Below, piece by piece: positions 215-51,240 of a stretch of 54,535 nt of DNA. The DNA comes from Sphingobium sp. Its GTDB lineage: Bacteria; Pseudomonadota; Alphaproteobacteria; Sphingomonadales; Sphingomonadaceae. How positions within the stretch are numbered: position 1 is the stretch's first letter; every line of letters starts with the position of its first letter. The notes below the pieces were generated by a model. The model was not told the origin of the DNA and searched no databases. It was given only the letters and a program-made list of their open reading frames with translations. Both the position numbers and the translations under genes were made by a program. The stretch lies in the NCBI GenBank assembly GCA_040508335.1, contig JBEVMZ010000011.1, forward strand, positions 1 to 54,535. Reading direction: 5' to 3'.

Positions 215-1735
215 TTAGTCCTGACGTTCCTCATTGCGGCCGACGCCGGCCAGATCCTCGGCATAGCCCTTCTTGCGCTCGACCTCCATGCCGCGCAGAA
301 TCTGGATGCGCTGCGCCTGCGGGCTGCCCGCGCCATGAAGCGATTCGGTCAGATAGCCCACCGCATTGCGGCCGAGCGTCATATTCTCGATCAGGCGAAG
401 CACGCGCTGGCGATGCTCGACCGGCACATTGGCGCGGCCCTGGAAATATTTCTTGAGCATCGGACCGGCGATCTCATGGTCGAAATCCTGTTCGCTGGGC
501 AGGGTCACCATGAGACCACCGGCGAGATCCTGCGCCAGTCGGCTGATCTCGTAGGGGAAGCGGGTGACGTTGTGCTTGCAGACATTGGCGAGCATGGAAT
601 CGTTCATGAAGATGCCCGAAGGCAGCTGCTTGGCCTCATGGGATGAAGCGATGGCGGAGGAATAGATCGTCTCGTTAAGATGGGTCATTTCGACCAGCTT
701 GTCCTTGACGTGGCTTGCCGCGTCCGCGCCATTATATTCCGCTATCGTTGCTGCCGCACCCACCATCACGTCGCCCAGGCCCGTCTTGCAGACATAGGAA
801 GCACGGTGATAGCTGGTGAAGCGTGCCACCATTTCCTGCGCGAACTCATATTCGCCATCCATGAAGACATGCTCGTTGGGAATGAACACGTCCTCGAACA
901 CGACCAGCACTTCCTGGCCGCCGAATCGGGCATTGCCCTTGTCGATCTCGCCCTTTTCCAGCGCGCGCGTGTCGCAGGACTGACGCCCATAGATATAGGT
1001 CAGGCCCGCCGCGTCTCCCGGCACCATGCCGACGATCGCATAATCCTTGTCATCGGGACCCATGTTCATGGTCGGCATGACCGCGATCCAGTGGCTGTTG
1101 AGACCGCCGGTCATGTGCGCCTTTGCGCCCGTCACATAGACGCCATGCTCCGTGCGGCGGGTGACGTGCATGAACAGGTCCGGATCGACCTGCTCGGACG
1201 GCCGCTTGGACCGATCGCCCTTGGGGTCGGTCATGCCTGCGCCGACGATGATGTTGTTGCGCTGGGCGTTCTTCATGAACTCGAGATAGCGCTGATGATA
1301 GTTAGTGCCGTGCTTCTGATCGATATCGTAGGTGATCGAGTGCAGCACGCTGATGGTGTCGAGGCCGGCGCAGCGCTGGAAGCAGGTGCCGGTCAGTTGG
1401 CCAAGGCGGCGCTGCATCCGGTTCTTCATCACCAGATCCTGGGGCGAGCCGACGATGTGCAGGAAGCGGTTGACCTGTGCGTCGATAAGGTCGCTGTGCG
1501 CGGTGGCCAGCTCCGGGTCCTCCACGGCGAGGTCGTAGGTCTGCTTGAGCGCATTGATCGACGGACGGATGATCGGATGATCGACATAATTGTCGACCTT
1601 CTCGCCGAATAGATACACGGTGACGTCGCGGCCGCGCAGACTTTCGACGTAATCGTCGCCGGTCACGATCGGCGTGAATCGCGCCCAGCGGCGGTCGGCC
1701 GACTCTTCGCGGGGGTTCTGGGTAACGGCGTTCAT
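215..1735 (-). CDS. abfD: 4-hydroxybutyryl-CoA dehydratase / vinylacetyl-CoA isomerase-like (HpaB/AbfD family, FAD + [4Fe-4S])
   Basis: TCFQRCAGLD and YHRASYVCKTG supply the Cys/Cys/His/Cys ligand pattern of AbfD rather than the HpaB monooxygenases; also MTDPKGDRS and ESLHGAGSPQAQR. AGGAG RBS. Confidence 0.8.
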   Translation of the reverse strand: MNAVTQNPREESADRRWARFTPIVTGDDYVESLRGRDVTVYLFGEKVDNYVDHPIIRPSINALKQTYDLAVEDPELATAHSDLIDAQVNRFLHIVGSPQDLVMKNRMQRRLGQLTGTCFQRCAGLDTISVLHSITYDIDQKHGTNYHQRYLEFMKNAQRNNIIVGAGMTDPKGDRSKRPSEQVDPDLFMHVTRRTEHGVYVTGAKAHMTGGLNSHWIAVMPTMNMGPDDKDYAIVGMVPGDAAGLTYIYGRQSCDTRALEKGEIDKGNARFGGQEVLVVFEDVFIPNEHVFMDGEYEFAQEMVARFTSYHRASYVCKTGLGDVMVGAAATIAEYNGADAASHVKDKLVEMTHLNETIYSSAIASSHEAKQLPSGIFMNDSMLANVCKHNVTRFPYEISRLAQDLAGGLMVTLPSEQDFDHEIAGPMLKKYFQGRANVPVEHRQRVLRLIENMTLGRNAVGYLTESLHGAGSPQAQRIQILRGMEVERKKGYAEDLAGVGRNEERQD

Positions 1736-1807
1736 GATAGGCTCCTGGTCGTCGGCGGCGCGGGATCCAGCCCGTTCCCGGCCGGCGTTGGCGCCGATGA
1801 CGGGGGA

Positions 1808-1939
1808 CTAACGGCCGATAAGCACCTCGCGCAGTCGGTGTTTCTGAATCTTGGCGCTGGGCGTGCGTGGTACATCATTCGCATCCATAAGGAAAACGTG
1901 TTTCGGCACCTTGTAGAAGGAGAGATTCCGCTGCAGGCG
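1808..1939 (-). pseudogene. Relic: C-terminal tail of an AMP-binding acyl-CoA ligase
   Basis: Manual translation RLQRNLSFYKVPKHVFLMDANDVPRTPSAKIQKHRLREVLIGR* contains the YKVP and P.T.S.KI.K..LRE (A10) motifs; no upstream gene body. Confidence 0.8.
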
Positions 1940-1965
1940 CCCGCGCCATTGCTTGCCACGGTTTG

Positions 1966-2162
1966 GAGCTTTCCGTAGCGCGGTTTGGAATAGTTCCGGA
2001 AGCCCGATAGCGTCAGCCCGGGAACGGGCGTCCCGCCCGCGTCGATCTCGAGGCCCTTGATCGTCGCGAACGTCGCATTCTTGGTCAGCGTTAACGGGAG
2101 GGGATCGATGCGCGCCCTTTGTTGCGCGTTTCCAATGTGGTGCGCCGAATGTCCTTGTAGCG
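1966..2162 (-). pseudogene. Relic: internal beta-barrel fragment of a TonB-dependent receptor
   Basis: RYKDIRRTT, then a frameshift, then TLTKNATFATIKGLEIDAGGTPVPGLTLSGFRNYSKPRY. Aligns by eye with VKGIQRSI...TLIQNAGKARIYGLEAELTVIPFEGLELAASGAITKPKY of the intact receptor at 48922. Confidence 0.7.
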
Positions 2163-2388
2163 GCGACCCGCTATTTCGCTGCCTCGCGCGCCACGGACGA
2201 CACCGGGCAGATAGTCCAGGTCCGCAAGTTCCTAGACCCGCAGCGGGGCCGACGCCCGCGCGCATAATAGCAGTTGGCGACGTTTATTACTTGGTATAAC
2301 AGGTACCCATTGTTTACCGTTTTAGGAGAAGAAGCCGCTTGCGTCCGAGCCCCGCCTCCGGCCCCGCTGCGCGCCCCGGGAGGGTGGC

Positions 2389-25766: not shown

Positions 25767-26804
25767 TCACAGGCTTTTGTAGCGTTCGAAGAGCTGCGGG
25801 TTGCGCTCCAGCCCGGAGAGACGGTGATGCGAATTGGGATAGCGCATCGGACCCTGGCTCGCGCGGTCGAGTGCCGTCATTTCCGCGTCGGTCAGCGACC
25901 ATTGCGCCGCAGCCAGATTGTCCGTCAACTGCGCGTCGGTACGCGCACCGATCAGTACGCTGGTCACGCCCGGACGCCGCAGCAGCCAGTTCAACGCGAC
26001 CTGGCTGGGCGTCGCGTGATGCGCCGCCGCAATCTCGTCCACCGTGTCGAGCAGCCGTTCGCCCAGCGGTGTGTCATAAGTCTTGAGGCGATCGCTCTGC
26101 TCCAGCCGGGTTTCACCCCCGCGCTGGCCGCGAAACTTGCCGGAAAGATAGCCTTGCGCCAGCGGGCTCCAGATCAGCGCGCCAACCCCCTGATCGACGC
26201 CGCAGGGCAGTAATTCCTCTTCCGCGTCGCGAACCATCAGCGAATATTGGATCTGCTGTCCGATGAAGGGCACATAGCCGCGCCGGTCGGCGACGGCCAT
26301 CGCCTTCATCAACTGCCAGCCGGCATAGTTGGAACAGCCCACATAACGGATTTTGCCGGCCGTGACGAGGTCGTCGAGCACGCGCAATGTCTCTTCCAGC
26401 GGTACGCGCGCATCGAAACTATGTACCTGGTAGAGGTCAATCCAATCCGTGCCCAGGCGCCGCAGCGAGGCTTCGCATGCTTCGACCAGGTGGCGCCGCG
26501 ACAAACCGGCGTCATGCGCGTTTTGCCCCATGCGGCCGAACGCCTTGGTCGCGACCACGACCTGCTTGCGGCGATCGCCGAGCGCTTCGCCCAATATCTC
26601 CTCCGACCGGCCGGCGGCATAGATGTCGGCAGTGTCGAACAGGGTCACGCCCGCATCGAGGCATATATCGATCTGCCGCTGCGCCGCCGCGCCATTTGTG
26701 CCGCCGGTCATGGCGAACTGCCCGGTCCCGTCGGAAAAGGTCATGGCGCCAAAGCCCAGCACCGATATTTGAAGGCCGCTGTTGCCGAGAAATCGCTGTT
26801 CCAT
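25767..26804 (-). CDS. Aldo/keto reductase
   Basis: LGFGAMTF, FDTADIY, VATK, DLYQVH, WSPLAQG; start trimmed to MEQRFLG (GAGG RBS). Confidence 0.93.
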   Translation of the reverse strand: MEQRFLGNSGLQISVLGFGAMTFSDGTGQFAMTGGTNGAAAQRQIDICLDAGVTLFDTADIYAAGRSEEILGEALGDRRKQVVVATKAFGRMGQNAHDAGLSRRHLVEACEASLRRLGTDWIDLYQVHSFDARVPLEETLRVLDDLVTAGKIRYVGCSNYAGWQLMKAMAVADRRGYVPFIGQQIQYSLMVRDAEEELLPCGVDQGVGALIWSPLAQGYLSGKFRGQRGGETRLEQSDRLKTYDTPLGERLLDTVDEIAAAHHATPSQVALNWLLRRPGVTSVLIGARTDAQLTDNLAAAQWSLTDAEMTALDRASQGPMRYPNSHHRLSGLERNPQLFERYKSL

Positions 26805-26854: not shown

Positions 26855-28531
26855 TTAGGCCGATCCGCTGGGCACGGGAAGCGCGTCGTGCAGCCCCGTA
26901 TCGCGGGTTTCGTCGCGCCACCGCACCGATCCATAAGGCCGCTCCAGCAGACGACGCACATGCGGCCGCCGGTCACCGCCGTGAAACGCGATAGCCGCCT
27001 CGATCGTTTGCATCTCTTCATGCGTGTTGCGGTCGCGCAGGCGCAGATAGTCATGCCAGGTCGGACAGTGGAACCGCTCGGTCCATGCCCGGGTATCGGC
27101 AATGTCCCGCGCGATGGACCAGTCATAGGCGCCGTTGCGGTGCCGCAGCTGCTGGACGTTCTGCATCGCGCGATAGAAGGAACGCGCTTGCGCCGGGTCG
27201 ACGCTATATTCGATCTCCACGATGACCGGCCCACTGCGCCCGCTGAGATCCAGCGCGACATCGATCTGATCGTCGAGCAGCACCTCGTCCTTGCCGATCG
27301 CGCTCACGTCCGGAAGGCGCAGGGCGAAACGGAGCGCGGCAGTGCCTGCGATCGCGGCGGCGGACAGCGCAACCGCGCCCGACACCGACAGCAGGTCGGC
27401 GACCTCGCCCCAAAGCCAGCTGCCGATGGCGATGCCGCCGGCGATGGCCGCCTGGAATGCGGCCAACGCCCGACCGGCGACCCAGCGGGGTGCTGCAAGC
27501 TGGATATTGATGTTGAAAAGGGTGATGCTGAGCGTCCAGACCACCCCGCCTGCCAAAAGCGCGGCCAGCGTTAGTGCGAGCGACGAGCTGAACGCGACGA
27601 CGGCGAGGCATGCGCCCAGGATCAGCGCGCATATTCCCGCGCTGCCTTCCGCCCCCATCGCGTCCTTGACCCGCCCGACGCAGACCGCGCCGACCACCGA
27701 TCCCACGCCGACCGCGCCCAGCAGCAGGCCGTAGGTTCGGGCGCCACCATGCAACAGCGTACTGGCGACCAGCGGCATCAGCGCGGAGATCGATCCGCCT
27801 GCGATGCCGAACAGCAGCACCCTGGTCAGCGCGATGCGCATCGGCGGGGAATGCAGGACATAGCGGATGCCCGACACCATCGCCCGCCCGATCCGCTCCG
27901 GCGGCAGGCGCATGGGCGCTATCTTCCGCCGCCAGGTGAAAAGGACGATGAGGATGGGGATGTAGAAGAGCGCATTGACGGTAAAGGCCGCGGCGGCGCC
28001 GGCGGCCGCCACGACGATCCCGCCGATGGCCGGACCGAAACTGCGCGCGATGTTGAAGCTGATCGAGGCGAGCGCGACCGCCTGCGGCAGCGTTTCGGCG
28101 GGGACCTGCTCGGCGACGGATGCCTGCCAGGCGGGGCCGAACAACGCCTGCCCCGTACCGATCAGGAAACAGAAGAGCAGGATCAGTGGCGGCGAGAGCA
28201 GGCCAAGATAGGCGATGCCCGAAAGGCAAGTCGCACTGACGAAGGAGATGGCGAGCGCCGCCATGCCGACCTTGCGCCGATCGAACATGTCGGCGAGCGC
28301 GCCTGCGGCCATGGCGACGAACATGACCGGCATCATCAACGCCGTCTGCACCAGGGCGACGATATTGGGCGCGGCATCGAGCTGAACCATTGCCCAGGCC
28401 GCGCCGACACCCTGGATCAGCAACCCGAAATTGGACAACAGGCTGGCTAGCCAGACGCGGCGAAATACAGGCACACGCAGCGGTGCGGTCAGCGGCACCG
28501 CGTTTCCTTCGGCCGGCGACCGTCCTGACAT
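26855..28531 (-). CDS. MFS transporter (MFS_3 type) with a soluble C-terminal domain
   Basis: GALADMFDRR, PAWQASV, NIARSFGPAIGG; C-terminal GPVIVEIEY...RNGAYDW...WTERFHCPTW domain; start uncertain. Confidence 0.9.
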   Translation of the reverse strand: MSGRSPAEGNAVPLTAPLRVPVFRRVWLASLLSNFGLLIQGVGAAWAMVQLDAAPNIVALVQTALMMPVMFVAMAAGALADMFDRRKVGMAALAISFVSATCLSGIAYLGLLSPPLILLFCFLIGTGQALFGPAWQASVAEQVPAETLPQAVALASISFNIARSFGPAIGGIVVAAAGAAAAFTVNALFYIPILIVLFTWRRKIAPMRLPPERIGRAMVSGIRYVLHSPPMRIALTRVLLFGIAGGSISALMPLVASTLLHGGARTYGLLLGAVGVGSVVGAVCVGRVKDAMGAEGSAGICALILGACLAVVAFSSSLALTLAALLAGGVVWTLSITLFNINIQLAAPRWVAGRALAAFQAAIAGGIAIGSWLWGEVADLLSVSGAVALSAAAIAGTAALRFALRLPDVSAIGKDEVLLDDQIDVALDLSGRSGPVIVEIEYSVDPAQARSFYRAMQNVQQLRHRNGAYDWSIARDIADTRAWTERFHCPTWHDYLRLRDRNTHEEMQTIEAAIAFHGGDRRPHVRRLLERPYGSVRWRDETRDTGLHDALPVPSGSA

Positions 28532-28602: not shown

Positions 28603-29964
28603 TCAGGAAGCGACGTGAACGGGCACGCCGCCCTGGATCGTTGCGGCGACGGGCGCAAGGTGCGGCTCGGCAAGAATGCGTCCGATCGGTGCTTGCAGCA
28701 CGCAAAGATCGGCCGGCGCTCCGGGCACGATCCGGCGAACCGGCCCGCCTGGCGCATCGGCCGGGGCAAGGTAGAGGGCGAGCGCGCGGGGCGGGGAAAG
28801 CGCCTCGGCAAGGCCCAGCGGATTGCCCCCCTGAGTGCGGCGGACGACAGCCGCACGGATTCCGGCCCACGGATCGGGATCGCCATAAGGCGCGTCGGAA
28901 CTGCCGCCCAGCGGCACCCCGGCCGCGACCAGACTAGCGGCGCGATACAGATCGGGCTGTTCGGCAGGATCGACAAGCGCGCGGTAACGCTCGCCACGTG
29001 TGGCGACGAAGCCAGGCTGCGTGACGACGGTCAGACCGAGCGCGCGCAGCACCGGGATCGCGTCGGCCGGAATGATGCTGCCATGCTCGATCCGGTCGCC
29101 CGGCCTGGCTCCCGCCTCCTCGAACGCCGCCAGCATCATCGCGAGTTCGCCTGCTGTCACGCAATGGGCGGCGACAGCGCGCCCTTGCCGCCGGGCGTCC
29201 GTGATGGCGGCGACGATCGCGTCGAGCGCGGGCAGGCGGTCATCATCCAGCAGAATCTTGACCGGACCTGTCGTATAGTCGGGCGACGGCGGCAGCGGTC
29301 CGCCTGACATCAGCGTCAACCGCAGCGGCAGTCGGGTGCCGACGATCAGCGTGGCTGCGGATGCGTCGGTGCTGACGCTGGCATCGGTCACGCCGGTGAC
29401 GCCCTGCGCAGCGAGCGCGCGGCCGAGCGCCGCAAGGTCCGGCGGGGTCCGGCCGATACGATCGCTCAACCATGGGTCGCAGCGGAAGAAGCGCCCAGTG
29501 GGCGCGCCCAGGGCGTCGCGTTCGGCGCCTTCTGGCCAGTCGGTGGTTCCAAGGGCAGCAAGAGCCGGGCCGTTCAGCATCCACAGCGCCCCGGTCTGGT
29601 GTTGCACCCGGAGCGGCCTGTCGGGAATCAGCGCGTCGAGTGCGCGCGCATCGAGGGGGCCGGCGATGCGCTCATGATAGCCCGTCGCGCGCAGCCATCC
29701 CCGGCCCGGCGGCGCTACGCGCAGTGCGCGGGCGACCGCGTCCCCGTCGGCGCATCGCTCCAGCAGAATCGAGTCCCGCTGCGCGGCGGTGGCCAGCAGA
29801 TGGATATGATGATCGTGCAGCCCGGGCAGCACCGGTCGCCCGCGCGCGTCAAACAATTCTTCGCCGCGCAGGCCGGGACCGATATCGGCGATCCGTCCGC
29901 CCGCCAGCGCGATGTCGACGATGCGCCCATCGAGACGCGCGTTGCGGATAAGCGTCCTATTCAT
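28603..29964 (-). CDS. Amidohydrolase (YtcJ-like, Amidohydro_3)
   Basis: PGLHDHHIH, AAHCV, RIEHG, SSDAP, GAPADL; ATGA overlap with the upstream gene. Confidence 0.88.
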   Translation of the reverse strand: MNRTLIRNARLDGRIVDIALAGGRIADIGPGLRGEELFDARGRPVLPGLHDHHIHLLATAAQRDSILLERCADGDAVARALRVAPPGRGWLRATGYHERIAGPLDARALDALIPDRPLRVQHQTGALWMLNGPALAALGTTDWPEGAERDALGAPTGRFFRCDPWLSDRIGRTPPDLAALGRALAAQGVTGVTDASVSTDASAATLIVGTRLPLRLTLMSGGPLPPSPDYTTGPVKILLDDDRLPALDAIVAAITDARRQGRAVAAHCVTAGELAMMLAAFEEAGARPGDRIEHGSIIPADAIPVLRALGLTVVTQPGFVATRGERYRALVDPAEQPDLYRAASLVAAGVPLGGSSDAPYGDPDPWAGIRAAVVRRTQGGNPLGLAEALSPPRALALYLAPADAPGGPVRRIVPGAPADLCVLQAPIGRILAEPHLAPVAATIQGGVPVHVAS

Positions 29965-30947
29965 GCCGTCGCCGCCCGCGCCGCCGTTTGGGCGAGCGCC
30001 ATATCGATCAGCACGCCACCGCCGTCGTGGATCGCCTCCAGCGCCGCGCGCGCCGCCCCCAGCCCGGTCAGCGGATCGGCTAACGCGTCGCCTGCAAAGA
30101 CCGGGCGGCCGCCCTGCCAGTCGACCAGCCCGCCCGCCACCGCCGCGTCATCGCCAAAGCCGGTGCGCAGCCCCGCCGCGCCGCTCCAGCCATGGCCGGT
30201 GATCGCTATCCAGATCGCATGCGGCTTCATCGCAAACAGCGCGTCGGGACCAAGACCCAGCGCCTCGAATGCACGGGGGCGGGCACTGGTGACGATGATG
30301 TCCGCCTGCGCCATCAGCGGCCGCAGGGCAGCGGCGGTGAAGGCAATGCTTTCGCGCCGCTTGAGCCCGTTCAGGCGGGCGTCATGCGCAGGTGCGGAGC
30401 GCGCGAGCGGATCGGGGCGCGTCATGCTCTCGACTTTGCGCACCTCATGCCCGGCCTGTGCGAGCAGGCCGGCGCATAGCGGTCCGGCCCAGAGCGTGGA
30501 CAGGTCGAGGACCAAGAGCGTCTTTCCTAAAGGCCCCTTTCGCGCACCCGCCGGTCGAAGGCGGGGCGGGGGGGAGGGGGCGGCTTCGCCCAGCCGTGCG
30601 ACAGCCAGACCCAGCAACGCGCCATGCGCTACGAATTCGGCGGCTGGCTCCGAGCGCGCCGCCGCCTCGACCGCGGCCCAGGGCGGATCGCCAAAGGCGC
30701 AGCCGGTCCAGGCGGGAACGAGATCGAAATCGTCCTCCCTGGGAAGATTGGCCGCGATCCAGCCGTCCGCCGCGCGGAGGATTCGACAGCTGCCGTTGGC
30801 GGACACCGGGCCAGGCGGCGCGAGTGGAATGGCGTCGGACCGGTCGAGCAGAGCTGCGGCGTCGAGCGCCACCCGTCCGTCAGTCAGCGCCGCGATCGCC
30901 TGAACATCCCGCGCCGCTGCGGCCAGTGCCGCTGCCATCCCGTTCAT
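29961..30947 (-). CDS. Family III CoA-transferase-like protein, apparently circularly permuted
   Basis: The canonical N-terminal motif GPL...VLDLSTLWAGPLC...GHEVRKVES starts only at aa ~138; the small-domain motif RAADGWIA comes before it. Confidence 0.8.
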   Translation of the reverse strand: MNGMAAALAAAARDVQAIAALTDGRVALDAAALLDRSDAIPLAPPGPVSANGSCRILRAADGWIAANLPREDDFDLVPAWTGCAFGDPPWAAVEAAARSEPAAEFVAHGALLGLAVARLGEAAPSPPPRLRPAGARKGPLGKTLLVLDLSTLWAGPLCAGLLAQAGHEVRKVESMTRPDPLARSAPAHDARLNGLKRRESIAFTAAALRPLMAQADIIVTSARPRAFEALGLGPDALFAMKPHAIWIAITGHGWSGAAGLRTGFGDDAAVAGGLVDWQGGRPVFAGDALADPLTGLGAARAALEAIHDGGGVLIDMALAQTAARAATA

Positions 30948-31948
30948 GCCGCTTCCAGCGCGGTCAGCAGGCCCCAGGCGAGTGCCGTGGCACCGTCGAT
31001 GCGCCGTCCTGTCAACAGCATCGCGGCGGTGCGGTGTCGGCCGATGGCGCGGGGCAGGGTAACCGTGCCGCCAGCGCCTGGCATCAGTCCCATGGTAAGC
31101 TCAGGCAGTTGGAAGAACACGCCGGTCCGGCCGATCCGGTGCGGCGCGGCAGCGGCTATCTCTATGCCCGATCCGATGCAGGCACCATGCAGGAGCACCT
31201 GTGCCCGTTCGCCAAGCCGATGAAGGAGCAGCGCGCAGGAGCGGGCCGTGCGGATCGCATGGGCGTTGGCGAGGTCGCTGGCGGTGCCGAACTCGTCAAG
31301 ATCGCCACCGGTGGAAAAGCAGGCGCCGCGCCCCGACAGACATACCGTGGGCCGGCTCGGGTCGTCCAGGACCGCCGCCAGCGCGTCGAACAGGGCGTCG
31401 CGCATCCCGGCGCACATGCCGTTGCGCCTGTCGGGGCGGGCAAGGTCGATCGTGACATGATCGTCCTCCCGCGCGATCTCGACAAAGGCGGTGGATGGAT
31501 GGGCGACAGGGGCTCCGCGGGCATGATCATGTCGCCATCGATGAAAGGCAGCGCCCCCGAGCAACGCTGAATAACCCAGAGATTCGAGATGGATGGCGTC
31601 GCCAAATGATAGAGTTTCTTCGATACGCAAGACGCGCATCGCCGTGCAGGCGGCGACGGGAGCGGCCGCGACGATTGCCGCTATCCTGGCCAGACGGTCC
31701 TCCCAGCGGCTGGCCGGCACCGCGACCCACGGCCGAGGCGGTGCGGAAGCGGTCGTCAGCAGCGCATCGAAGGGAGCGGGATCGACAGCCGGGAGCCGGC
31801 CGGTCGGATCGAGCCCTATTATAACCGCCTGGCTATGCGTCGCCATCGCCTCGGCCTCCACAGCGGCGCCGGGCGCGCAGGCATCTGTCAGCCATAGCGG
31901 CCGGTCGCCCAACGGGCCGAACCTTTCGGCTTCCAGCGTATCGATCAT
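30944..31948 (-). CDS. Crotonase-family protein, apparently permuted or half-duplicated
   Basis: Core LARPDRRN, FSTGGDL, GACIGSGIE, LPELTMGLMPGAGG at aa ~155-334; ends at ALAWGLL without the C-terminal helices. Confidence 0.82.
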   Translation of the reverse strand: MIDTLEAERFGPLGDRPLWLTDACAPGAAVEAEAMATHSQAVIIGLDPTGRLPAVDPAPFDALLTTASAPPRPWVAVPASRWEDRLARIAAIVAAAPVAACTAMRVLRIEETLSFGDAIHLESLGYSALLGGAAFHRWRHDHARGAPVAHPSTAFVEIAREDDHVTIDLARPDRRNGMCAGMRDALFDALAAVLDDPSRPTVCLSGRGACFSTGGDLDEFGTASDLANAHAIRTARSCALLLHRLGERAQVLLHGACIGSGIEIAAAAPHRIGRTGVFFQLPELTMGLMPGAGGTVTLPRAIGRHRTAAMLLTGRRIDGATALAWGLLTALEAA

Positions 31949-32002
31949 GGACGGGAGGTGACCCCGGACGCCGCCGGGGTCAAGTCCTGCCGTCGGGTAC
32001 GG

Positions 32003-33505
32003 TCAGGCCGCGACGCCCTTGCTCATTTCGGACTTGAGCACGCGGCGAAGCAGCTTGCCGGTCTCATTATAGGGCAGCTCTTCGCGAAAATCCCAATTTT
32101 CCGGCGTCTTGGTGGAGCGGAGCCGCGACTTTACCCAATCGGCCAGTTCCTCGACGCTGGGGACGTCCCCGTCGCATACCAGCGAGCAGGCGACCCGTTC
32201 GCCCCAGCCGTCATCGGGCAGGCCATAAACGGCAACGTCGCGCACGCGCGGATGGAGGCGCAGTACATCCTCGACCTCACCGGGCGAGATATTCTCGCCG
32301 CCCCGAACGATCACGTCGTCCAGCCGGCCCTCGACGAAGAGATAGCCTTCTTCGTCCAACCAGCCCGAATCGTTCGTCGCGAACCAGCCGTCGTCGGACA
32401 GCATCTTCTTGTGCAGATATTCACCGGCGACCTGCTCGCCGCGCACATAGACCTCGCCAGATTCGCGGGGGCCCAGTACGGTCGTGCCGTCGGCGCCGCG
32501 GATTTCCAGTTCCAGCGAGGGCAGCGGCCGACCGACGGACCCCAGCCGCGCGCGCACATGCGCATCGTCGGACGAGAAGGCGGCGCGATGGTCTTCCGGG
32601 CCCAACACCGAAATGGTGGAACTCGTCTCGGTCAGACCGTAAGCGTTGACGAAATCGACCTGCGGCAATTTCTTAATCGCCCGCTCGATCACCGATTGCG
32701 GCATCCGGCCTCCGCCATAGGAAAGCGCGCGCAGGTGGGGCAGGTCGATGTCCATCCGCTCCATTTCGTCCAGAATGCGTGCCAGCATGGTCGGCACGAC
32801 CATGGCGTGCGTCACCTTTTCAGCATGGGCGAGCTGCACCCAGGCATCGGGAGCGAAGCTGTGCAGATAGGCAATGCGCCGGCCCGAATAGGTGCCGGTC
32901 AGCACTGCGGAGATGCCGGCGATATGATAGGGCGGCACGCTGACCAGCGCGGCCTCTTCTTCGCCAGCGCCCATGAACTCGACGGTCGAGATGACGTAGG
33001 AGGTAAGGTTGCCGTGACGAAGCACCGCCGCCTTGGGATCGCCCGTGGTGCCGCTGGTGAACAGCAGGACGGCGATATCCTGGTCGACGAAGGGCAATTC
33101 CTCCTTATGATTATCCTCATCGTCGCAAGCCGCCTCGAAGGCTTCGCGGGTCACGATGGTGACGCCATCGATCCCATGCACGCGCGCGGCCATGTTGCCG
33201 TCCGCAATGACGATCGACGGAGCAGTGCGCGCGACCAGCTTGCGCAGGTCCTCGTCGGCCAACCGGTAGTTGACCGGCGCGAAGGGCTTTCCGGCAAGTC
33301 CGGCTGCGAACAAGGCCAACGGGAAGGCTGGGCCGTTATGACCCAGGAAGACGACCGTATCACCTTTCAGTCGATGGAATAACGCCGCGCCGCCTTTTGC
33401 CCGGTGAAAGGCGTCAGCATAGCTAAGGGTGCCTTCGACAGTGGTATAGGCTTCGCGGTCGCCTATCGTTTCCGCCGCCATTTCCAGAAGGAGTTGGGTC
33501 TGCAT
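32003..33505 (-). CDS. Class I adenylate-forming enzyme (acyl-CoA ligase-like)
   Basis: FTSGTTGDPK, YGLTE, TND, GRLDDVIVRGGEN, LPYNETGKLLR. Confidence 0.93.
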   Translation of the reverse strand: MQTQLLLEMAAETIGDREAYTTVEGTLSYADAFHRAKGGAALFHRLKGDTVVFLGHNGPAFPLALFAAGLAGKPFAPVNYRLADEDLRKLVARTAPSIVIADGNMAARVHGIDGVTIVTREAFEAACDDEDNHKEELPFVDQDIAVLLFTSGTTGDPKAAVLRHGNLTSYVISTVEFMGAGEEEAALVSVPPYHIAGISAVLTGTYSGRRIAYLHSFAPDAWVQLAHAEKVTHAMVVPTMLARILDEMERMDIDLPHLRALSYGGGRMPQSVIERAIKKLPQVDFVNAYGLTETSSTISVLGPEDHRAAFSSDDAHVRARLGSVGRPLPSLELEIRGADGTTVLGPRESGEVYVRGEQVAGEYLHKKMLSDDGWFATNDSGWLDEEGYLFVEGRLDDVIVRGGENISPGEVEDVLRLHPRVRDVAVYGLPDDGWGERVACSLVCDGDVPSVEELADWVKSRLRSTKTPENWDFREELPYNETGKLLRRVLKSEMSKGVAA

Positions 33506-33552
33506 TGTGCTTGCTGGCTTTCCTGAGGGGTCGTTGCGCGTTCGGCTGCGTG

Positions 33553-33861
33553 TCAGTCGGAGGCAGGAAGCGGCTTGGCGTCCTTGAGCTCGACCGGGCG
33601 GCCGTCGATTGCCAGCGATCCCGTGCCTGCCTTGCTGCCGAGCAGCTCGATGCCGCTTTCGGCGTCGACATAACGCTTGCCGACCGAAGTCCCGGCCGAA
33701 AAATCAGGGGAGATGGTCAGACCCTCGGGCGCGTCGGAGCCAAGCGCGACCATCGGATGCCCGCCGCATTCGAGCGATACTTCACCCTTGGGCGGACGGA
33801 CCACGACCACTTCGGTCGTATCGACGGCGCTCCTCCAGCGCGATCCGGGCTTGACCTGCAT
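33553..33861 (-). CDS. Small hypothetical protein (102 aa) with an internal duplication, desulforedoxin-like
   Basis: GGGGAG RBS; two repeats, GSRWRSAVDTTEVVVVRPPKGEVSLECGGHPMV and GKRYVDAESGIELLGSKAGTGSLAIDGRPVE; tail KPLPASD; co-oriented with the ligase. Confidence 0.8.
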   Translation of the reverse strand: MQVKPGSRWRSAVDTTEVVVVRPPKGEVSLECGGHPMVALGSDAPEGLTISPDFSAGTSVGKRYVDAESGIELLGSKAGTGSLAIDGRPVELKDAKPLPASD

Positions 33862-43295: not shown

Positions 43296-43465
43296 TGTCG
43301 GAACAGCTTCTCGGGTTGGATGAGAGCGATGCGGTGCTTGATTTGGGCGCCTTTCCAGAGCGCAGCAGCAGCACGGGGCATTTCCAGCGCGTGCGATACT
43401 GAGCTTATTTTGCGCTGGAGCGCGGCGCTGACGCCTCCGACCTCGATCACCCATAAACAAGGAGG

Positions 43466-43505
43466 GAGCCGGCGCGCCTTTCGGTACACCGGCTCATTTT
43501 CTTTC
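43466..43505. terminator. Probable bidirectional intrinsic terminator between convergent units
   Basis: GAGCCGG...CCGGCTC stem followed by ATTTTCTTTC on +; G-U-extended stem with a GAAA loop on the - strand. Confidence 0.55.
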
Positions 43506-43517
43506 AAAACGAAAGGA

Positions 43518-44330
43518 TCAGGACGCGGCCAGCATCTTCTGCACATCGATGACGCCCGTCATGACGCCGCCGACGAAGCCATGATCCACCGGCATGGCCA
43601 GGCCACTGATGAAACGGGCCGCTTCGCTGTTGAGCAGCAGCAGCGGGTCCGCCTGCTCCGATGCGGTCGAATGCCGTCCGACCGGCTCGGAAAAGACGTC
43701 GAACACCTTGGCGGGCGCGATCTTCACAAACTCTTCCATCATCGGCGTCGCGATCGGGCTGGGCAGGGTCACGTTGAGGCGAATGCCCTCACGCCCCAGT
43801 TCGGCCGCCCGCTTAAGCGTATAGGCGACCATCGCTTCCTTGGAGAAGCCGTAGCCGTCCGCCACAGTCTCTGCATTGTCTTCGACCCACTTCACCGCGC
43901 TGTCGAAATCGGGCGTGTCGACCAGTTCGAGCAGCGTCGGCACGCGCTGGGTATATTGGAACGCCGCGTTGGAGGCGACGGTGGCGACCGCGCCGCCCTT
44001 GCGGAGTTTGGGGATCCAGCTTTCGATCCAGTAGCGCATGCCGATGAAGTTGACCTTCATCACGTCAAGCGCGGGGAATGTCTGGGGAAGGCCGGCGCAG
44101 TTGAACAGCGCGTCGATCTCCCCACCAATACCCTGGACCGCCGCGTCGATCGACGCGGGATCCTTAAGATCGACGGTGCGGAAGGACGCCATCGGCACCT
44201 TGCTCTCGCGCACGTCTACGCCATGCACTTCGGCACCCATTTCGGCCAGGCGGCTCGCGCACGCCTCGCCAACGCCGGAAAAACATCCGGCAATGACGAC
44301 GCGCTTACCCTCGTAGGAAAAAATGCTCAT
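43518..44330 (-). CDS. SDR, coniferyl-alcohol dehydrogenase / 3-alpha-HSD-like
   Basis: GCFSGVG, DALFNCAG, VNFIG, YGFSKE, VDHG. Confidence 0.88.
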   Translation of the reverse strand: MSIFSYEGKRVVIAGCFSGVGEACASRLAEMGAEVHGVDVRESKVPMASFRTVDLKDPASIDAAVQGIGGEIDALFNCAGLPQTFPALDVMKVNFIGMRYWIESWIPKLRKGGAVATVASNAAFQYTQRVPTLLELVDTPDFDSAVKWVEDNAETVADGYGFSKEAMVAYTLKRAAELGREGIRLNVTLPSPIATPMMEEFVKIAPAKVFDVFSEPVGRHSTASEQADPLLLLNSEAARFISGLAMPVDHGFVGGVMTGVIDVQKMLAAS

Positions 44331-44353
44331 TCAATGTCCCTTCAGGGGGTGGT

Positions 44354-45832
44354 TCAGATCTGGCGGTAGCTGATCGACTTCAGCTCGGTGAAGGCGTTGA
44401 CGCCTTCCTCGCCCCATTCGCGGCCGATGCCCGAACGCTTGAAGCCGCCGAACGGCGAGATCGGCGCACCTGGGATCGAGCCACCGCCGTTGATCGAGAC
44501 AACGCCGGTACGCACGCCAGCCGCGATGTCGAACGCCGCGCCCAGGTCGGACGAGAAGACAGCGCCGCCAAGGCCGAAGCTGGAATCGTTGGCCATGTCG
44601 ATCGCCTGCTCGTCGCTGTCGAAGCCGGTGACGGCCACGATCGGCCCGAACACTTCTTCCTGAGCCAGGCGCGACTTGTTGTCGACATCGTCGAATACGG
44701 TCGGTTCGAAGTAGAAGCCCTTGTCGAAGCCGGCGGGACGGCGGCCGCCTGTGACGAGCCGCGCATTCCCCTTGAGGCCTTCCTCGGTATAATATTCCGT
44801 CTTCGCACGCTGCGCTTCGCGGATCAGCGGGCCAAAAGTGCTGCTCGGATCGGAAGGCGAACCGATCTTGAGCGAACGGAACGCCTCGGCCAACTGTTCG
44901 ACATATTGCTTGCGCACCGAATTATGGACGATGTGCCGCGTGCAGAGCGCGCAGCCCTGCCCGGAGTGGGACAACGATCCCACACCCGCCTGGACTGCGG
45001 CCGCCAGATTGGCGTCGCTGCGGATGATCAGTGCGGACTTGCCGCCCAGTTCGAGATGCAGCCGCTTGAGCGACGGGGCGCCCTGCGCCATGATCGCCGA
45101 GCCTACCGCGTCCGAGCCGGTGAAGCTGATGACATCGACGCGCGGGTCGGTCGTCATCTGCTCGCCGACGTCCTTGCCGCCCGTGATGACGTTGATGACG
45201 CCCGGGGGGAAATCGAGACCCGCAGCGATCTCAGCGACGATAAGCGCGGAAAAAGGCGTGAACGGTGAAGGCTTGAGCACGACAGTGTTGCCCGCGACCA
45301 GCGCCGGGAACAGCTTCACGATGTTCAGAAAGAAGGGGAAGTTATAAGGCGTGATAGCCGACACGACGCCGATCGGTTCGCGCCGGATCATGCCGCCGAC
45401 GAAGCTGCGCGACCCGTCATGATTGGCAACGGTGCCCGACGGCAGCGCCTTGTCCAGGCTTTTCGCGCCTTGTTCGATCATGTCGCCGGACAGGAACATC
45501 GGCACATCGAACTGAATGGGGTGGATCGAAGAAACCGCGCCGGCTTCTTCGACGATCAGGCGGATGATGTCATCACGGCGCGCGGCGATGGCCGCGTGCA
45601 GTTCGCGCAGCTTTGCGGCGCGTTCGGCGGGCGCCATGCGTGGCCAGGGACCCCGGTCGAATGCTTCGCGCGCGGCGGCTATGGCCTGTTCCACCTCGGC
45701 GCGGCTGCCCACGGGAGCATAGGCCAGCACTTCTTCGGTTGCCGGGTTGATGACGGCTTCGGGCTCGCCGGTCGCCTTCACCCATTCACCGCCGATATAG
45801 ATGTGGTTCTCAAGCTTCTGGGGTAGGTACAT
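44354..45832 (-). CDS. Aldehyde dehydrogenase
   Basis: INPATEE, PYNFP, FTGS, LELGGKS, SGQGC, EEVFGP; start trimmed to MYLPQK (GGAG RBS). Confidence 0.95.
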   Translation of the reverse strand: MYLPQKLENHIYIGGEWVKATGEPEAVINPATEEVLAYAPVGSRAEVEQAIAAAREAFDRGPWPRMAPAERAAKLRELHAAIAARRDDIIRLIVEEAGAVSSIHPIQFDVPMFLSGDMIEQGAKSLDKALPSGTVANHDGSRSFVGGMIRREPIGVVSAITPYNFPFFLNIVKLFPALVAGNTVVLKPSPFTPFSALIVAEIAAGLDFPPGVINVITGGKDVGEQMTTDPRVDVISFTGSDAVGSAIMAQGAPSLKRLHLELGGKSALIIRSDANLAAAVQAGVGSLSHSGQGCALCTRHIVHNSVRKQYVEQLAEAFRSLKIGSPSDPSSTFGPLIREAQRAKTEYYTEEGLKGNARLVTGGRRPAGFDKGFYFEPTVFDDVDNKSRLAQEEVFGPIVAVTGFDSDEQAIDMANDSSFGLGGAVFSSDLGAAFDIAAGVRTGVVSINGGGSIPGAPISPFGGFKRSGIGREWGEEGVNAFTELKSISYRQI

Positions 45833-48921: not shown

Positions 48922-51240
48922 TTGAAAATTTGCAAATCCGTCATTTCGGTTTTGGCATTGACTGGCGCCATGGCTGTGCCTGTCTTCGCGCAGAACAGCC
49001 AGCCCGCGCAGCCCGCCACCACCACCGGCGGCCTTGAAGACATCGTCGTCACGGCGCGTCGCGTCGCCGAGAATCTTCAGAACGTGCCTGTCGCCGTCAC
49101 TGCCTTCACCGGCGAGCAGCTTGAGCGCCAGAACGCCCGCTCCGTCATCGACATCGCGCGGCAGACGCCCGGGCTCACCATCCGCGAGAGCACGAACAGC
49201 GAAAACGCCGCCACTTTCTCGATCCGCGGCCAGGTCCAGACCGACATTTTGGCGACCACCGACCCGTCCGTCGGCGTTTATGTCGACGATTTCTACTGGG
49301 CGCGCGCCTATGGCGTGAACGCCGACCTGCTTGACATCCAGAGCGCGCAGACACTCAAGGGACCGCAAGGCACGCTGTTCGGCCGCAACACGACCGGCGG
49401 CGCGATCCTGCTCCGGACGAACGATCCCGATACCTCGGCCTTCTCGGGCAATATCTCGGCCACCTACGGCCGCTTCGACCATCGCATCGGTAGCGTCGTG
49501 CTCAACGTGCCCTTGGTGCAGGACCGTGTTGCCGTCCGCGGCGCATTTCGCATCGAAAAGCGTGACGGTTATGTCACCAACATCGTGAACGGGGAAAAGC
49601 TGGCGGAGCGCGACAACTGGACCGGCCGGCTGAAGCTGCTTGCCAAGCCCACAGAAACGCTTTCGGTGCTGCTGTCGGCTGAAATTTACGACACGGACGT
49701 CAACCAGCGCGGCTATCAGCTGACGCAAATTTCCCCCAATCTGGCTGCGGCCGAAATCGGTTTCGAAAGCGGCGCGACCAGCTTCCCGACCGCGATCGGC
49801 ACGGGCGTGACCATCGGCAACGACCTCATCGACTATCTGCGCGATAATCCGAACCGGGTCGCGCTGAACGATCCCACAGCGTCCGGGGCGAAGACCCACA
49901 CCTATACCGGCACGGTGACGCTCGACACTTTCTTCGGTGCGGTCAAGTTCGTCGGTGGCTATCGCCGCGTCAACGGCTTCAATTCGCTTGACCTCGACGG
50001 CACGCCCTTTCCCGTGCTGACGTCGGCCGGCACGCAGCGTCTCAGCCAGTATTCGGGCGAGGCGCAGATCACAGGCTCGACGGCTGACAGCGCGGTCGAT
50101 TTTGCGGCGGGCGTATTCTACTTCCACGAAAGTGGGACGGATATGACGCGGTCGCTTGCGCTGCCCGTGATTTCGGGCAGCACCAACCCCAACATCCAGT
50201 CCGGCTTCATCGTCAATGACAGCCAGGGCGCTTACGCTCAGGCGAGCTGGCACATCACCGATGCCCTTACCTTTACCGGCGGTCTGCGCTATTCGGTCGA
50301 GGATAAGGCGCTGACGATCCGCAACCGGACGGAGACGCCGGGCGGGGCGGTGGTGCGATGCACGGTGGGCGGCGCATTGATCGCCAACCTGTGCGCCGTG
50401 CGTCGCAAGGATGACTTCGACGGCTGGTCCTACACTGCCGGACTCGACTATCGGATAAATCCAGACGTACTGATCTACGCCAAGACGGCACGCGGCTTCC
50501 GTTCGGGCGGTCAGAACCTTCGCGCGACGGCGACGACGAACTTCATTCCATTCGGCCCTGAAACTGCAACCTCTTACGAGGGTGGTTTCAAGTCTGAGCT
50601 GTTCGATCGGCGCGCACGTTTCAACGTGGCAGCCTACTATACCGAGGTGAAGGGCATCCAGCGCTCGATCCTGACGCCGACCAATCCTCCTGCGACCCTT
50701 ATCCAGAATGCCGGCAAGGCGAGAATCTATGGTCTTGAGGCAGAACTGACCGTCATTCCGTTCGAAGGCCTTGAACTGGCGGCGAGCGGCGCGATCACTA
50801 AGCCGAAATATCTGAACTATTTCGAGGGTACGAAGGATCGTCGCACCGATCGGTTCGAAACCATTCCGGAACAGACCGCAACCTTCGCAGCCACTTATAC
50901 GACCGACATCGGCGCAGGCACGCTGATGCTGCGCGGCGACTATATCTATACGGCCAAATATTTCTCCGGCCCGTATAATGAACCCAGCGACCCGTTTAAC
51001 CAGGCGGTGATCGACGGCACGACCGTGCCGGCGTCGCAGATAGTCAACGGCCGTGCATCGCTGACGCTGATGGACGATGCGCTCGAAATCGCGGTATGGG
51101 GACGCAACCTCACCAACAACCGCGATATCGACGCCGGCCTCCTGCTGCCGCCGGGTGCCACCGGTCTGGGCTATTCGGTTGGCGTCCGTCGCGAACCGCG
51201 CACGTTCGGCATCACCGGCACCTATCGCTTCGGCCAGTAA
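48922..51240 (+). CDS. TonB-dependent receptor
   Basis: TTG start after GGGAGG; signal peptide ending VFA-Q; TonB box EDIVVTARR; plug motif LKGPQGTLFGRNTTGGA; C-terminal PRTFGITGTYRF. Confidence 0.96.
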   Translation: MKICKSVISVLALTGAMAVPVFAQNSQPAQPATTTGGLEDIVVTARRVAENLQNVPVAVTAFTGEQLERQNARSVIDIARQTPGLTIRESTNSENAATFSIRGQVQTDILATTDPSVGVYVDDFYWARAYGVNADLLDIQSAQTLKGPQGTLFGRNTTGGAILLRTNDPDTSAFSGNISATYGRFDHRIGSVVLNVPLVQDRVAVRGAFRIEKRDGYVTNIVNGEKLAERDNWTGRLKLLAKPTETLSVLLSAEIYDTDVNQRGYQLTQISPNLAAAEIGFESGATSFPTAIGTGVTIGNDLIDYLRDNPNRVALNDPTASGAKTHTYTGTVTLDTFFGAVKFVGGYRRVNGFNSLDLDGTPFPVLTSAGTQRLSQYSGEAQITGSTADSAVDFAAGVFYFHESGTDMTRSLALPVISGSTNPNIQSGFIVNDSQGAYAQASWHITDALTFTGGLRYSVEDKALTIRNRTETPGGAVVRCTVGGALIANLCAVRRKDDFDGWSYTAGLDYRINPDVLIYAKTARGFRSGGQNLRATATTNFIPFGPETATSYEGGFKSELFDRRARFNVAAYYTEVKGIQRSILTPTNPPATLIQNAGKARIYGLEAELTVIPFEGLELAASGAITKPKYLNYFEGTKDRRTDRFETIPEQTATFAATYTTDIGAGTLMLRGDYIYTAKYFSGPYNEPSDPFNQAVIDGTTVPASQIVNGRASLTLMDDALEIAVWGRNLTNNRDIDAGLLLPPGATGLGYSVGVRREPRTFGITGTYRFGQ

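What the first reader, a model, noticed from the sequence alone, without database searches (positions are those of the whole stretch)
28603..33861. Top candidate: five-gene module of a small desulforedoxin-like protein, an adenylating enzyme, two permuted CoA-enzyme folds and an amidohydrolase
Seen: co-oriented genes in the order small protein > ligase > crotonase-like > CoA-transferase-like > YtcJ amidohydrolase, the last three ATGA-coupled, followed by an MFS and an AKR. Both middle enzymes have rearranged domain order compared with canonical paralogues in this window. Known: small metal-ribbon proteins can carry substrates on an acidic C-terminus (LysW), and small partners can activate adenylation enzymes (MbtH). 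Inference: a dedicated activation-modification-release system, possibly acting on a protein-tethered substrate or assembled as one complex, in which the ligase loads, the remodelled crotonase and transferase modify, and the amidohydrolase releases. I know of no characterised pathway with this composition. I recall similar small proteins beside ligases in actinobacteria but have not verified this.
Basis: partly seen in the sequence, partly recalled or inferred. Interest (0 to 1): 0.85.

Follow-up and report, generated by a model that had tools for sequence, protein, structure and literature searches.

The report
Mini-protein tail threads into CoA ligase
Five genes that are inherited together across several bacterial phyla include an unstudied mini-protein whose nearly invariant aspartate-ended tail is predicted to thread into the acid-binding pocket of its partner CoA ligase, so the protein itself is likely what this enzyme set activates, which would be a new kind of carrier pathway.

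Summary
The five genes are real and form an undescribed system. In 120 sampled genomes of the host family, 11 hold all five, 107 hold none, and the 2 with only the last three have frameshifts in them. The link recurs in an actinobacterial order. The 102-aa protein is two fused desulforedoxin repeats. It keeps one cysteine, and 140 of 149 relatives end in Asp. A complex model docks it on the ligase (score 0.79, best control 0.00) with the tail in the acyl pocket, and those pocket residues are conserved across the ligase clade. The crotonase and the CoA-transferase both have rearranged order and intact catalytic motifs. A distant split form shows the core is tail protein, ligase and crotonase; it lacks the rearranged transferase. 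The MFS and AKR are not members. Best reading (0.42): the ligase activates the tail's terminal Asp. Main rival (0.27): the tail completes the pocket of a two-subunit ligase. No chemistry is shown, and the model does not place the tail at the catalytic residues.

The parts
33553..33861 (-). 102-aa mini-protein: two fused desulforedoxin-like repeats that have lost most metal cysteines, plus a C-terminal K-x-L-P-[AS]-S-D tail
   Evidence: tail residues 95-102 in the ligase pocket in the model
32003..33505 (-). ANL-family adenylating enzyme (acyl-CoA ligase type) of a clade that travels with the mini-protein; catalytic motifs intact
31950..31994 (-). Intergenic stem-loop without a U tract between ligase and crotonase; possibly tunes mRNA levels (inferred)
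   Evidence: -29.3 kcal/mol, z -2.2, 1 of 200 shuffles as stable; conservation not tested
30944..31948 (-). Crotonase with the canonical C-terminal helices placed before the catalytic core; both catalytic Glu motifs kept
29961..30947 (-). Family III CoA-transferase with the small domain before the large domain; catalytic Asp290 kept
28603..29964 (-). YtcJ-like (Amidohydro_3) amidohydrolase with metal-ligand motifs kept
26855..28531 (-). MFS_3 transporter downstream; not a conserved member
   Evidence: only one weak match (23% identity) in 80 loci
25767..26804 (-). Aldo/keto reductase downstream; not a conserved member
   Evidence: a match in 1 of 80 loci

Best explanation
The five genes form one inherited system in which the mini-protein is predicted to dock on the ligase and thread its aspartate-ended tail down the acyl pocket, and the ligase likely activates that terminal aspartate with ATP and CoA, so that the protein serves as substrate or carrier for the other three enzymes. 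Shown by sequence and genomes: co-inheritance, the conserved tail, intact catalytic motifs, and a core of tail protein, ligase and crotonase. Predicted by one model: binding and tail position. Inferred: adenylation of Asp102 and a protein-bound CoA thioester; the two-glutamate crotonase acting on that thioester (elimination or hydration across C2-C3); the rearranged transferase exchanging CoA; the amidohydrolase releasing the product or recycling the carrier. The product is unknown. Its spread, usually one copy of the three downstream enzymes in genomes full of lipid- and steroid-type catabolic genes, suggests a shared small molecule (cofactor or signal) for those gene islands, by analogy with mycofactocin.
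For: Tail: 140 of 149 diverse relatives end in Asp; L98, P99, S101 and D102 are 95-98% conserved. All 80 split-form loci end in P-S-[SA]-D (these were picked by similarity to a tailed query). Model: score 0.79 against best control 0.00; that mark was reached by 116 of 157 solved complexes and 2 of 215 mismatched pairs (counts hold only roughly here); runs agree in at least 93% of contacts; partner pLDDT at least 90. The ligase's interface list includes 196, 199, 235, 262, 288, 296 and 297, which by motif position (recalled GrsA numbering) are 7 of the 10 substrate-pocket positions; the partner's list includes tail residues 95-102. These positions are small or polar and conserved in 60 fused-type and 30 split-type ligases (A196, R209 and S296 at 100%) but not in 25 other ligases. 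Paralogous ligases from multi-copy genomes (47-73% identical) keep almost the same pocket, as expected for one invariant substrate. The crotonase travels with the pair: 11 of 11 and 21 of 21 small-protein genomes hold it, and 20 of 22 split loci do. The two family genomes that lack the pair have frameshifts in the remaining genes. The 17 longer hits looked like frameshift artefacts rather than true fusions (weak evidence). Precedent for a family III transferase working with a small protein's C-terminus: PtmU4 (PMC6006322, passages).
Against: The model's interface list does not include H194, I195, G264, G265, G290 or K484, the residues next to the adenylation site. The tail may therefore stop short of ATP, although the tool says an unnamed residue is only uncertain. 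Small protein and ligase copy numbers mostly match (6:5, 2:2, 2:1, 2:1, 2:2), as for a subunit. I recall no ANL enzyme that activates a folded protein's C-terminus, so the prior is low. I cannot name a useful product. Binding to the other three enzymes was not tested. Three actinobacterial genomes hold the crotonase without the pair, one (G196) with all three downstream genes matched end to end.
Confidence: 0.42

Rival explanations
1. Two-subunit CoA ligase. The mini-protein is a permanent accessory subunit whose tail forms the floor of the acyl pocket and selects a small, probably amine-bearing acid. The amidohydrolase supplies that acid, the crotonase converts its CoA ester and the transferase recycles CoA, as in carnitine-type (CaiB/C/D) modules.
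For: The tail fills the far part of the pocket but is not listed as touching the catalytic residues. The gene is next to the ligase in 56 of 80 loci and 6 of 6 annotated plasmid regions. Copy numbers mostly match. The body has a confident interface with the ligase N-terminal helix and residues 169-178.
Against: Enzymes usually close a pocket with their own residue (recalled: a Trp in acetyl-CoA synthetase). No true fusion was found, though a subunit could be fused after the ligase (weak). Three of 5 multi-copy genomes have one more small gene than ligases. Paralogous pockets have not diversified.
Confidence: 0.27
2. LysW-like amide carrier. The ligase adenylates the terminal Asp and joins it to an amine substrate; the transferase supplies CoA to the tethered substrate, the crotonase modifies it and the amidohydrolase releases it.
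For: It uses all four enzymes in a logical order. The carrier anatomy (small ribbon-derived body, acidic C-terminal residue) resembles amino-group carrier proteins (PMC11726168, passages). The amidohydrolase is present in 11 of 11 family genomes that hold the small protein.
Against: The rearranged transferase is in 0 of 22 split loci and the amidohydrolase is missing from 7 of 22 (they could lie elsewhere in those genomes). The ligase keeps the motifs of CoA-thioester-forming enzymes. The carrier is not strongly acidic.
Confidence: 0.12
3. Regulator. The tail is a pseudosubstrate plug that keeps the ligase off until a metal or redox signal, sensed by the desulforedoxin body, removes it.
For: The tail occupies the substrate path. 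AcuA's C-terminus occupies the CoA site of AcsA and lowers its activity (PMC11910552, abstract). Split forms keep full CxxC...CC sites.
Against: The fused form has lost the metal site in four or more phyla while the tail stays fixed. The pocket residues are invariant, as if built for the tail. The ligase orthologue was not found without the small protein in the 120 family genomes.
Confidence: 0.09
4. Sulfur carrier. The activated tail becomes a thiocarboxylate and the transferase passes sulfur to an acyl-CoA, as in thioacid cassettes.
For: PtmA3/PtmU4 do this with a sulfur-carrier protein (PMC6006322, passages). Frankia-type transferases look like trimmed two-domain enzymes by inspection. C32 is 94% conserved and lies outside the modelled ligase interface.
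Against: There is no C-terminal Gly-Gly. No E1, rhodanese or cysteine desulfurase turned up among the 58 window ORFs scanned. The split loci lack the transferase. C32 is absent in 9 of 149 relatives.
Confidence: 0.04

Closest known systems
Desulforedoxin / desulfoferrodoxin N-terminal domain (PF06397; PDB 1cfw)
   Same: Fold of each repeat. The 47-aa split relatives carry PF06397 and CxxC...CC.
   Different: The window copy is a fused two-repeat chain with one Cys, so it has no four-Cys iron site, and it carries an extra invariant tail. It travels with acyl-CoA enzymes.
LysW / amino-group carrier proteins (LysX loads, LysK releases)
   Same: Small ribbon-derived body with a conserved acidic C-terminal residue, and a dedicated ATP-using enzyme and a hydrolase nearby.
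   Different: Tail ends L-P-x-S-D, not the EDWGE motif (recalled). The partner is an ANL enzyme, not an ATP-grasp enzyme (recalled for LysX). The surface is not strongly acidic (against PMC11726168 passages). CoA enzymes are the companions.
MbtH-like proteins
   Same: Small partner encoded beside an adenylating enzyme and predicted to bind it.
   Different: No MbtH family hit, no NRPS in the window's scanned ORFs, and the predicted contact runs into the substrate pocket rather than staying on an outer surface (MbtH mode recalled).
Thioacid cassette PtmA3 / PtmU4 with sulfur-carrier proteins (PMC6006322)
   Same: Acyl-CoA ligase plus a family III transferase with its catalytic Asp in the C-terminal large domain, working with a small protein's C-terminus.
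   Different: The carrier here is not a Gly-Gly protein, the transferase is shorter and absent from split loci, and a crotonase and an amidohydrolase are added.
Carnitine-type module CaiC / CaiB / CaiD (recalled)
   Same: Ligase, family III transferase and crotonase in one unit.
   Different: No carrier or accessory protein is known there, and its enzymes have canonical domain order.
Mycofactocin system (PMC3023750, abstract and section titles)
   Same: Small gene product with an invariant C-terminus, a sporadic cross-phylum cluster, and hosts with expanded catabolic families.
   Different: No radical SAM enzyme here; the small product is a folded domain; dependent enzyme families have not been identified.

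Membership tests
Desulforedoxin (PF06397) | Desulforedoxin beta fold | tested here: met
   Best match 1cfw, Z 3.6, rmsd 0.8, 36 of 36 residues (weak Z). Both halves match the split Dx profiles (E 1.4e-21 and 4.4e-6).
Desulforedoxin (PF06397) | CxxC...CC four-cysteine metal site | tested here: not met
   Window protein has only C32. Family: position 11 is Ser in 97%, C14 66%, C32 94%, position 33 Gly. Met only by the split relatives.
Desulforedoxin (PF06397) | Iron binding and electron transfer | not testable with these tools
   Needs purified protein.
LysW / amino-group carrier protein | Conserved free acidic C-terminal residue | tested here: met
   140 of 149 end in Asp; Asp, not Glu.
LysW / amino-group carrier protein | EDWGE-type tail (recalled) and strongly acidic surface (PMC11726168) | tested here: not met
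   Tail is K-x-L-P-x-S-D; net charge median -2 in 122 proteins, window -3.
LysW / amino-group carrier protein | ATP-grasp loading enzyme (recalled) | tested here: not met
   Partner is PF00501/PF13193.
LysW / amino-group carrier protein | Covalent cargo on the C-terminal residue | not testable with these tools
   Needs mass spectrometry.
MbtH-like protein | MbtH sequence profile | tested here: not met
   No Pfam hit at E 0.1, no NCBIfam hit at E 0.001.
MbtH-like protein | MbtH fold | tested here: inconclusive
   Not among the listed matches; an unlisted family is not excluded.
MbtH-like protein | Binds an adenylating enzyme and raises its activity | tested here: inconclusive
   Binding is supported by a model only; activity is untested.
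Ubiquitin-like sulfur carrier / thioacid cassette | C-terminal Gly-Gly | tested here: not met
Ubiquitin-like sulfur carrier / thioacid cassette | Two-domain family III transferase of the PtmU4 clade | not tested
   PtmU4 sequence was not in hand. Frankia-type orthologues look like trimmed two-domain enzymes by inspection.
ANL acyl-CoA ligase | P-loop, YGxTE, catalytic Asp, Arg and Lys motifs | tested here: met
   H194, E293, D379, R394 and K484 at 100% in 90 clade members; below every listed NCBIfam cut-off.
Crotonase (enoyl-CoA hydratase type) | Two catalytic glutamates and oxyanion loop | tested here: met
   GxGxE 50 of 50, PE 50 of 50, GG[DN]L 34 of 50.
Family III CoA-transferase | Catalytic Asp and large plus small domain | tested here: met
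   Asp290 aligns with the Asp of the matching motif in SUGCT and formyl-CoA transferase (its catalytic role is recalled); motif in 40 of 41; small domain present but N-terminal.
YtcJ-like amidohydrolase (PF07969) | HxH, His, His, Asp metal ligands | tested here: met
   HxH 38 of 40, HCV 35 of 40, EH 40 of 40, DAP 40 of 40; nearest structures 3icj and 3igh are uncharacterised.

The most novel reading that the evidence does not exclude
An ANL-family ligase uses ATP to activate the C-terminal aspartate of a folded desulforedoxin-derived protein and forms a protein-CoA thioester. A crotonase, a CoA-transferase and an amidohydrolase convert it into a released small molecule, a ribosome-derived cofactor or signal on which the lipid- and steroid-type catabolic islands of sphingomonads, caulobacters, actinobacteria and others depend.
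Probability: 0.3. Interest if true: 0.93.

Novelty: categorically new. Interest (0 to 1): 0.78.

Why it matters
The family is large and unnamed: 1,189 clusters at 50% identity, and every source name listed for a full-length member is 'hypothetical' or 'uncharacterized'. Under either leading reading the biochemistry has no precedent that I found or recall: an acyl-CoA ligase that activates a protein's C-terminus, or one whose substrate pocket is completed by another protein's tail. It would also explain why this ligase clade might look inactive when expressed alone. It gives a handle on the large, poorly understood catabolic islands of soil and water bacteria. The first test is cheap: two soluble-looking proteins, ATP, CoA and a mass spectrometer.

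Tried and rejected
Sequence searches of the small protein against Pfam, NCBIfam and PDB found nothing, and Foldseek gave no match at E 0.001. The ESM Atlas gave no answer, so that comparison is missing.

Rosetta-stone fusions: the 17 longer hits have junk junctions or broken partners and look like frameshift artefacts; the search covered only 7,995 candidates.

Cys-thioester carrier: set aside because C32 is missing in 9 of 149 relatives and it does not explain the tail. Electron carrier: set aside because the metal ligands are lost in the fused form.

MFS and AKR as members: rejected.

My first impression that small-protein copies often stand alone (7 of 12 copies had no ligase within about 6 kb) was weakened: four of those have a ligase about 10-13 kb away and whole-genome counts differ by at most one. 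Neighbours of such copies are mixed catabolic genes with no recurring new partner.

Origin of the crotonase's N-terminal helices from the degenerate partner crotonase of split operons: suggestive but not shown (E 0.006, against 0.0004 for canonical crotonases and 0.014 for the catalytic partner). Profile searches with the N-terminal pieces alone were weak; the transferase piece was settled by structure.

Literature: searches (six terms, 0 papers) listed no paper whose title or abstract start describes this cluster. I saw only listings for those. Most subscription papers are not in the library.
Full report
Observation. The window is the whole of contig C10 of a 2.39-Mb genome, 93% complete; the closest named relatives of the small protein are from sphingomonads. 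The five minus-strand ORFs are as described: a 102-aa protein, an AMP-binding enzyme, a crotonase whose Pfam match covers only residues 166-330, a family III CoA-transferase whose match covers only 144-324, and an Amidohydro_3 protein. The last three are ATGA-coupled. A modest hairpin lies between ligase and crotonase. The rest of the window is a dense set of acyl-CoA and oxidoreductase genes.

Co-occurrence, local. Within 10 kb, 55 hold the ligase orthologue, 44 the rearranged crotonase, 42 the rearranged transferase, 36 the amidohydrolase and 31 all four. The window's exact order occurs in 25 of the 64 loci with enough downstream sequence. The MFS and AKR each matched 1 of 80 loci.

Co-occurrence, genome-wide. 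For 38 genomes that I chose because their locus lacked part of the cluster, the ligase was found in 37, the crotonase in 35, the transferase in 31 and the amidohydrolase in 28, mostly as one copy among dozens of candidates (many are incomplete assemblies). In an even sample of 120 family genomes at least 90% complete, the small protein is in 11. The ligase orthologue (E below 1e-145) is in the same 11 with matching copy numbers; the next ligase is 36% identical. Crotonase, transferase and amidohydrolase are each in 13: those 11 plus G045 and G084. Those two lack the pair and carry frameshifts in the remaining genes. One genome with all five, G044, also shows a break in its amidohydrolase. In 101 genomes of Gordonia's order, the small protein is in 21 and the crotonase in 24, including all 21. 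The 3 extra genomes lack the pair, and one of them, G196, has all three downstream genes. Among 72,556 plasmids, 19 hold the small protein. The 16 best transferase matches (97 bits or more; the other 14 score 82 or less) are all among those 19. Kin are not independent, so I give counts and no P value, but the pattern recurs in two phyla.

The small protein. It has 1,189 relatives at the 50%-cluster level. Its model is confident except for the tail, and its best structural match is desulforedoxin. In 149 sequences (the window protein and 148 of the 150 listed representatives; two long artefact rows were left out), 140 end in Asp, and the tail and a GKRY...E-x-L strand pair are the best-kept parts; cysteines are partly lost. 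Earlier scan notes mentioned a two-gene form, so I looked for it. There are 47-aa proteins with CxxC...CC plus the same tail, three of them with PF06397. In 80 metagenome loci all carry the full site and the tail, and 24 also show a tailless 39-aa partner. The window protein's two halves match these profiles. It is therefore a fused pair that lost its metal sites and kept its tail.

The minimal system. In the 22 split-form loci with at least 5.2 kb downstream, 21 hold the ligase, 20 a catalytic crotonase, 18 a second degenerate crotonase, 15 the amidohydrolase and 0 the rearranged transferase. The window crotonase core is closest to the catalytic one (score 318, against 282 for canonical crotonases and 199 for the degenerate one). 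Fused-type and split-type ligases fall on one side of a branch against 25 other ligases (support 88, quick tree of 56 rows, long branches present). The core is thus tail protein, ligase and crotonase.

The rearranged enzymes. Profile alignment places the canonical crotonase C-terminal helices at residues 74-145, and the two best PDB matches of the N-terminal profile are crotonase C-terminal helices, though weak (E 0.2 and 0.49). The transferase's first 135 residues fold as the family III small domain. Both patterns fit trimming of a tandem pair rather than a clean permutation; Frankia-type transferases retain more of the flanks (by inspection). Catalytic motifs are intact in all four enzymes, so none looks like a dead scaffold.

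The complex. Ligase, ATP and small protein were folded with 61-row alignments. The score was 0.79 against a best control of 0.00; that mark was reached by 116 of 157 solved complexes and 2 of 215 mismatched pairs, counts that hold only roughly for this job. Runs agree in at least 93% of contacts and the partner's pLDDT is at least 90. This supports binding and does not show it. The best-resolved pairs put the body (19-21, 60-63, 74-77) on the ligase N-terminal helix and residues 169-178. The remaining ligase residues in the list run from 203-209, 233, 260 and 284-286 to 196, 199, 235, 262, 288, 296 and 297, and I assign these to the tail (95-102); the output does not list those pairs. By motif position, using recalled GrsA numbering, the last seven are substrate-pocket positions. 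They are conserved across both ligase types and differ in other ligases, and they barely vary among paralogues. The residues nearest the adenylation site (H194, I195, G264, G265, G290, K484) are not in the list. That is the main gap: the tail either is the substrate, modelled slightly short, or is the pocket floor.

Mechanism. I favour the tail as substrate (0.42). The reasons are an invariant terminal carboxylate that is almost never extended, a pocket apparently built for it, paralogous ligases with one pocket and a single shared downstream set, and decay of that set where the pair is lost. Because the crotonase needs a CoA ester and split loci have no clustered rearranged transferase, the ligase product is likely that ester. 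What follows is inferred, and I cannot name the product. The subunit model (0.27) explains the missing catalytic contacts and the near 1:1 copy number. The amide-carrier (0.12), regulator (0.09) and sulfur-carrier (0.04) models are less well supported.

Comparison and novelty. The protein works like a carrier or accessory subunit but fails defining features of desulforedoxin, LysW-type carriers, MbtH-like proteins and Gly-Gly sulfur carriers (see membership table). Papers used: PMC6006322 (passages), PMC11726168 (passages), PMC11910552 (abstract and section titles), PMC3023750 (abstract and section titles). I read no supplements; the PMC6006322 network of 2,401 two-domain transferases could include relatives of this enzyme. 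Six searches listed no description of the cluster. Earlier scan notes on other genomes reach a similar idea; they are not independent evidence, and my complex job preceded my seeing them. Verdict: a real, widespread, undescribed system with a specific and cheaply testable central claim; chemistry unproven.

Noticed in passing
G000:C198:49740-50975 (-); L023:8772-9998: A canonical-order family III CoA-transferase often sits directly upstream of the small gene. Its subfamily is in 8 of 120 family genomes, all holding at least part of the system (7 of the 11, plus G045). A likely sixth, optional member.
   Followed up: partly
G045:C13:35993-40596 (L088): The canonical transferase is followed directly by the crotonase, with small gene and ligase missing and the rearranged transferase frameshifted; this looks like deletion of the pair followed by decay.
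   Followed up: yes
L125, L134, L146, L169 and other split-form loci: A gene that looks like coaD (phosphopantetheine adenylyltransferase, named from recalled sequence features), often with an rsmD-like gene, follows the split operon in the loci printed and occurs in 11 of 80 loci. It may be only chromosomal position in one lineage.
   Followed up: no
window:35229-35657 (+): Short TetR-like ORF with only a weak TetR_N match (E 0.091), ATGA-coupled to a thioesterase; possibly a broken regulator.
   Followed up: no
window:48796-51480 (-), 43320-44369 (+), 1732-2265 (-): Long ORFs with no Pfam hit at E 1e-5. For the first, the overlapping plus-strand frame 48922-51240 was not scanned and may be the real gene.
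   Followed up: no
window:1-54535: The whole contig is a catabolic island: HpaB-type hydroxylase, acyl-CoA dehydrogenases, two nitronate monooxygenase-like genes, two canonical crotonases, several SDRs, thioesterases, Amidohydro_2, DUF1214 plus sulfotransferase. Annotated plasmid regions with the small gene look alike, with P450s, thiolase/OB-fold pairs and mycofactocin- or F420-type enzymes.
   Followed up: partly
G252 (L205-L211): One 9.6-Mb actinobacterial genome has six small genes and five ligases but a single crotonase match.
   Followed up: partly
L084, L100, L101: Relatives of the window's MFS_3 transporter (48-54% identity) lie a few kb upstream of the small gene on the opposite strand, so a loose link to the island is possible.
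   Followed up: no
P0122-P0138: Database proteins that appear to fuse the small domain to ligases, an amidohydrolase, an OB-fold or a thiolase look like frameshift artefacts.
   Followed up: yes
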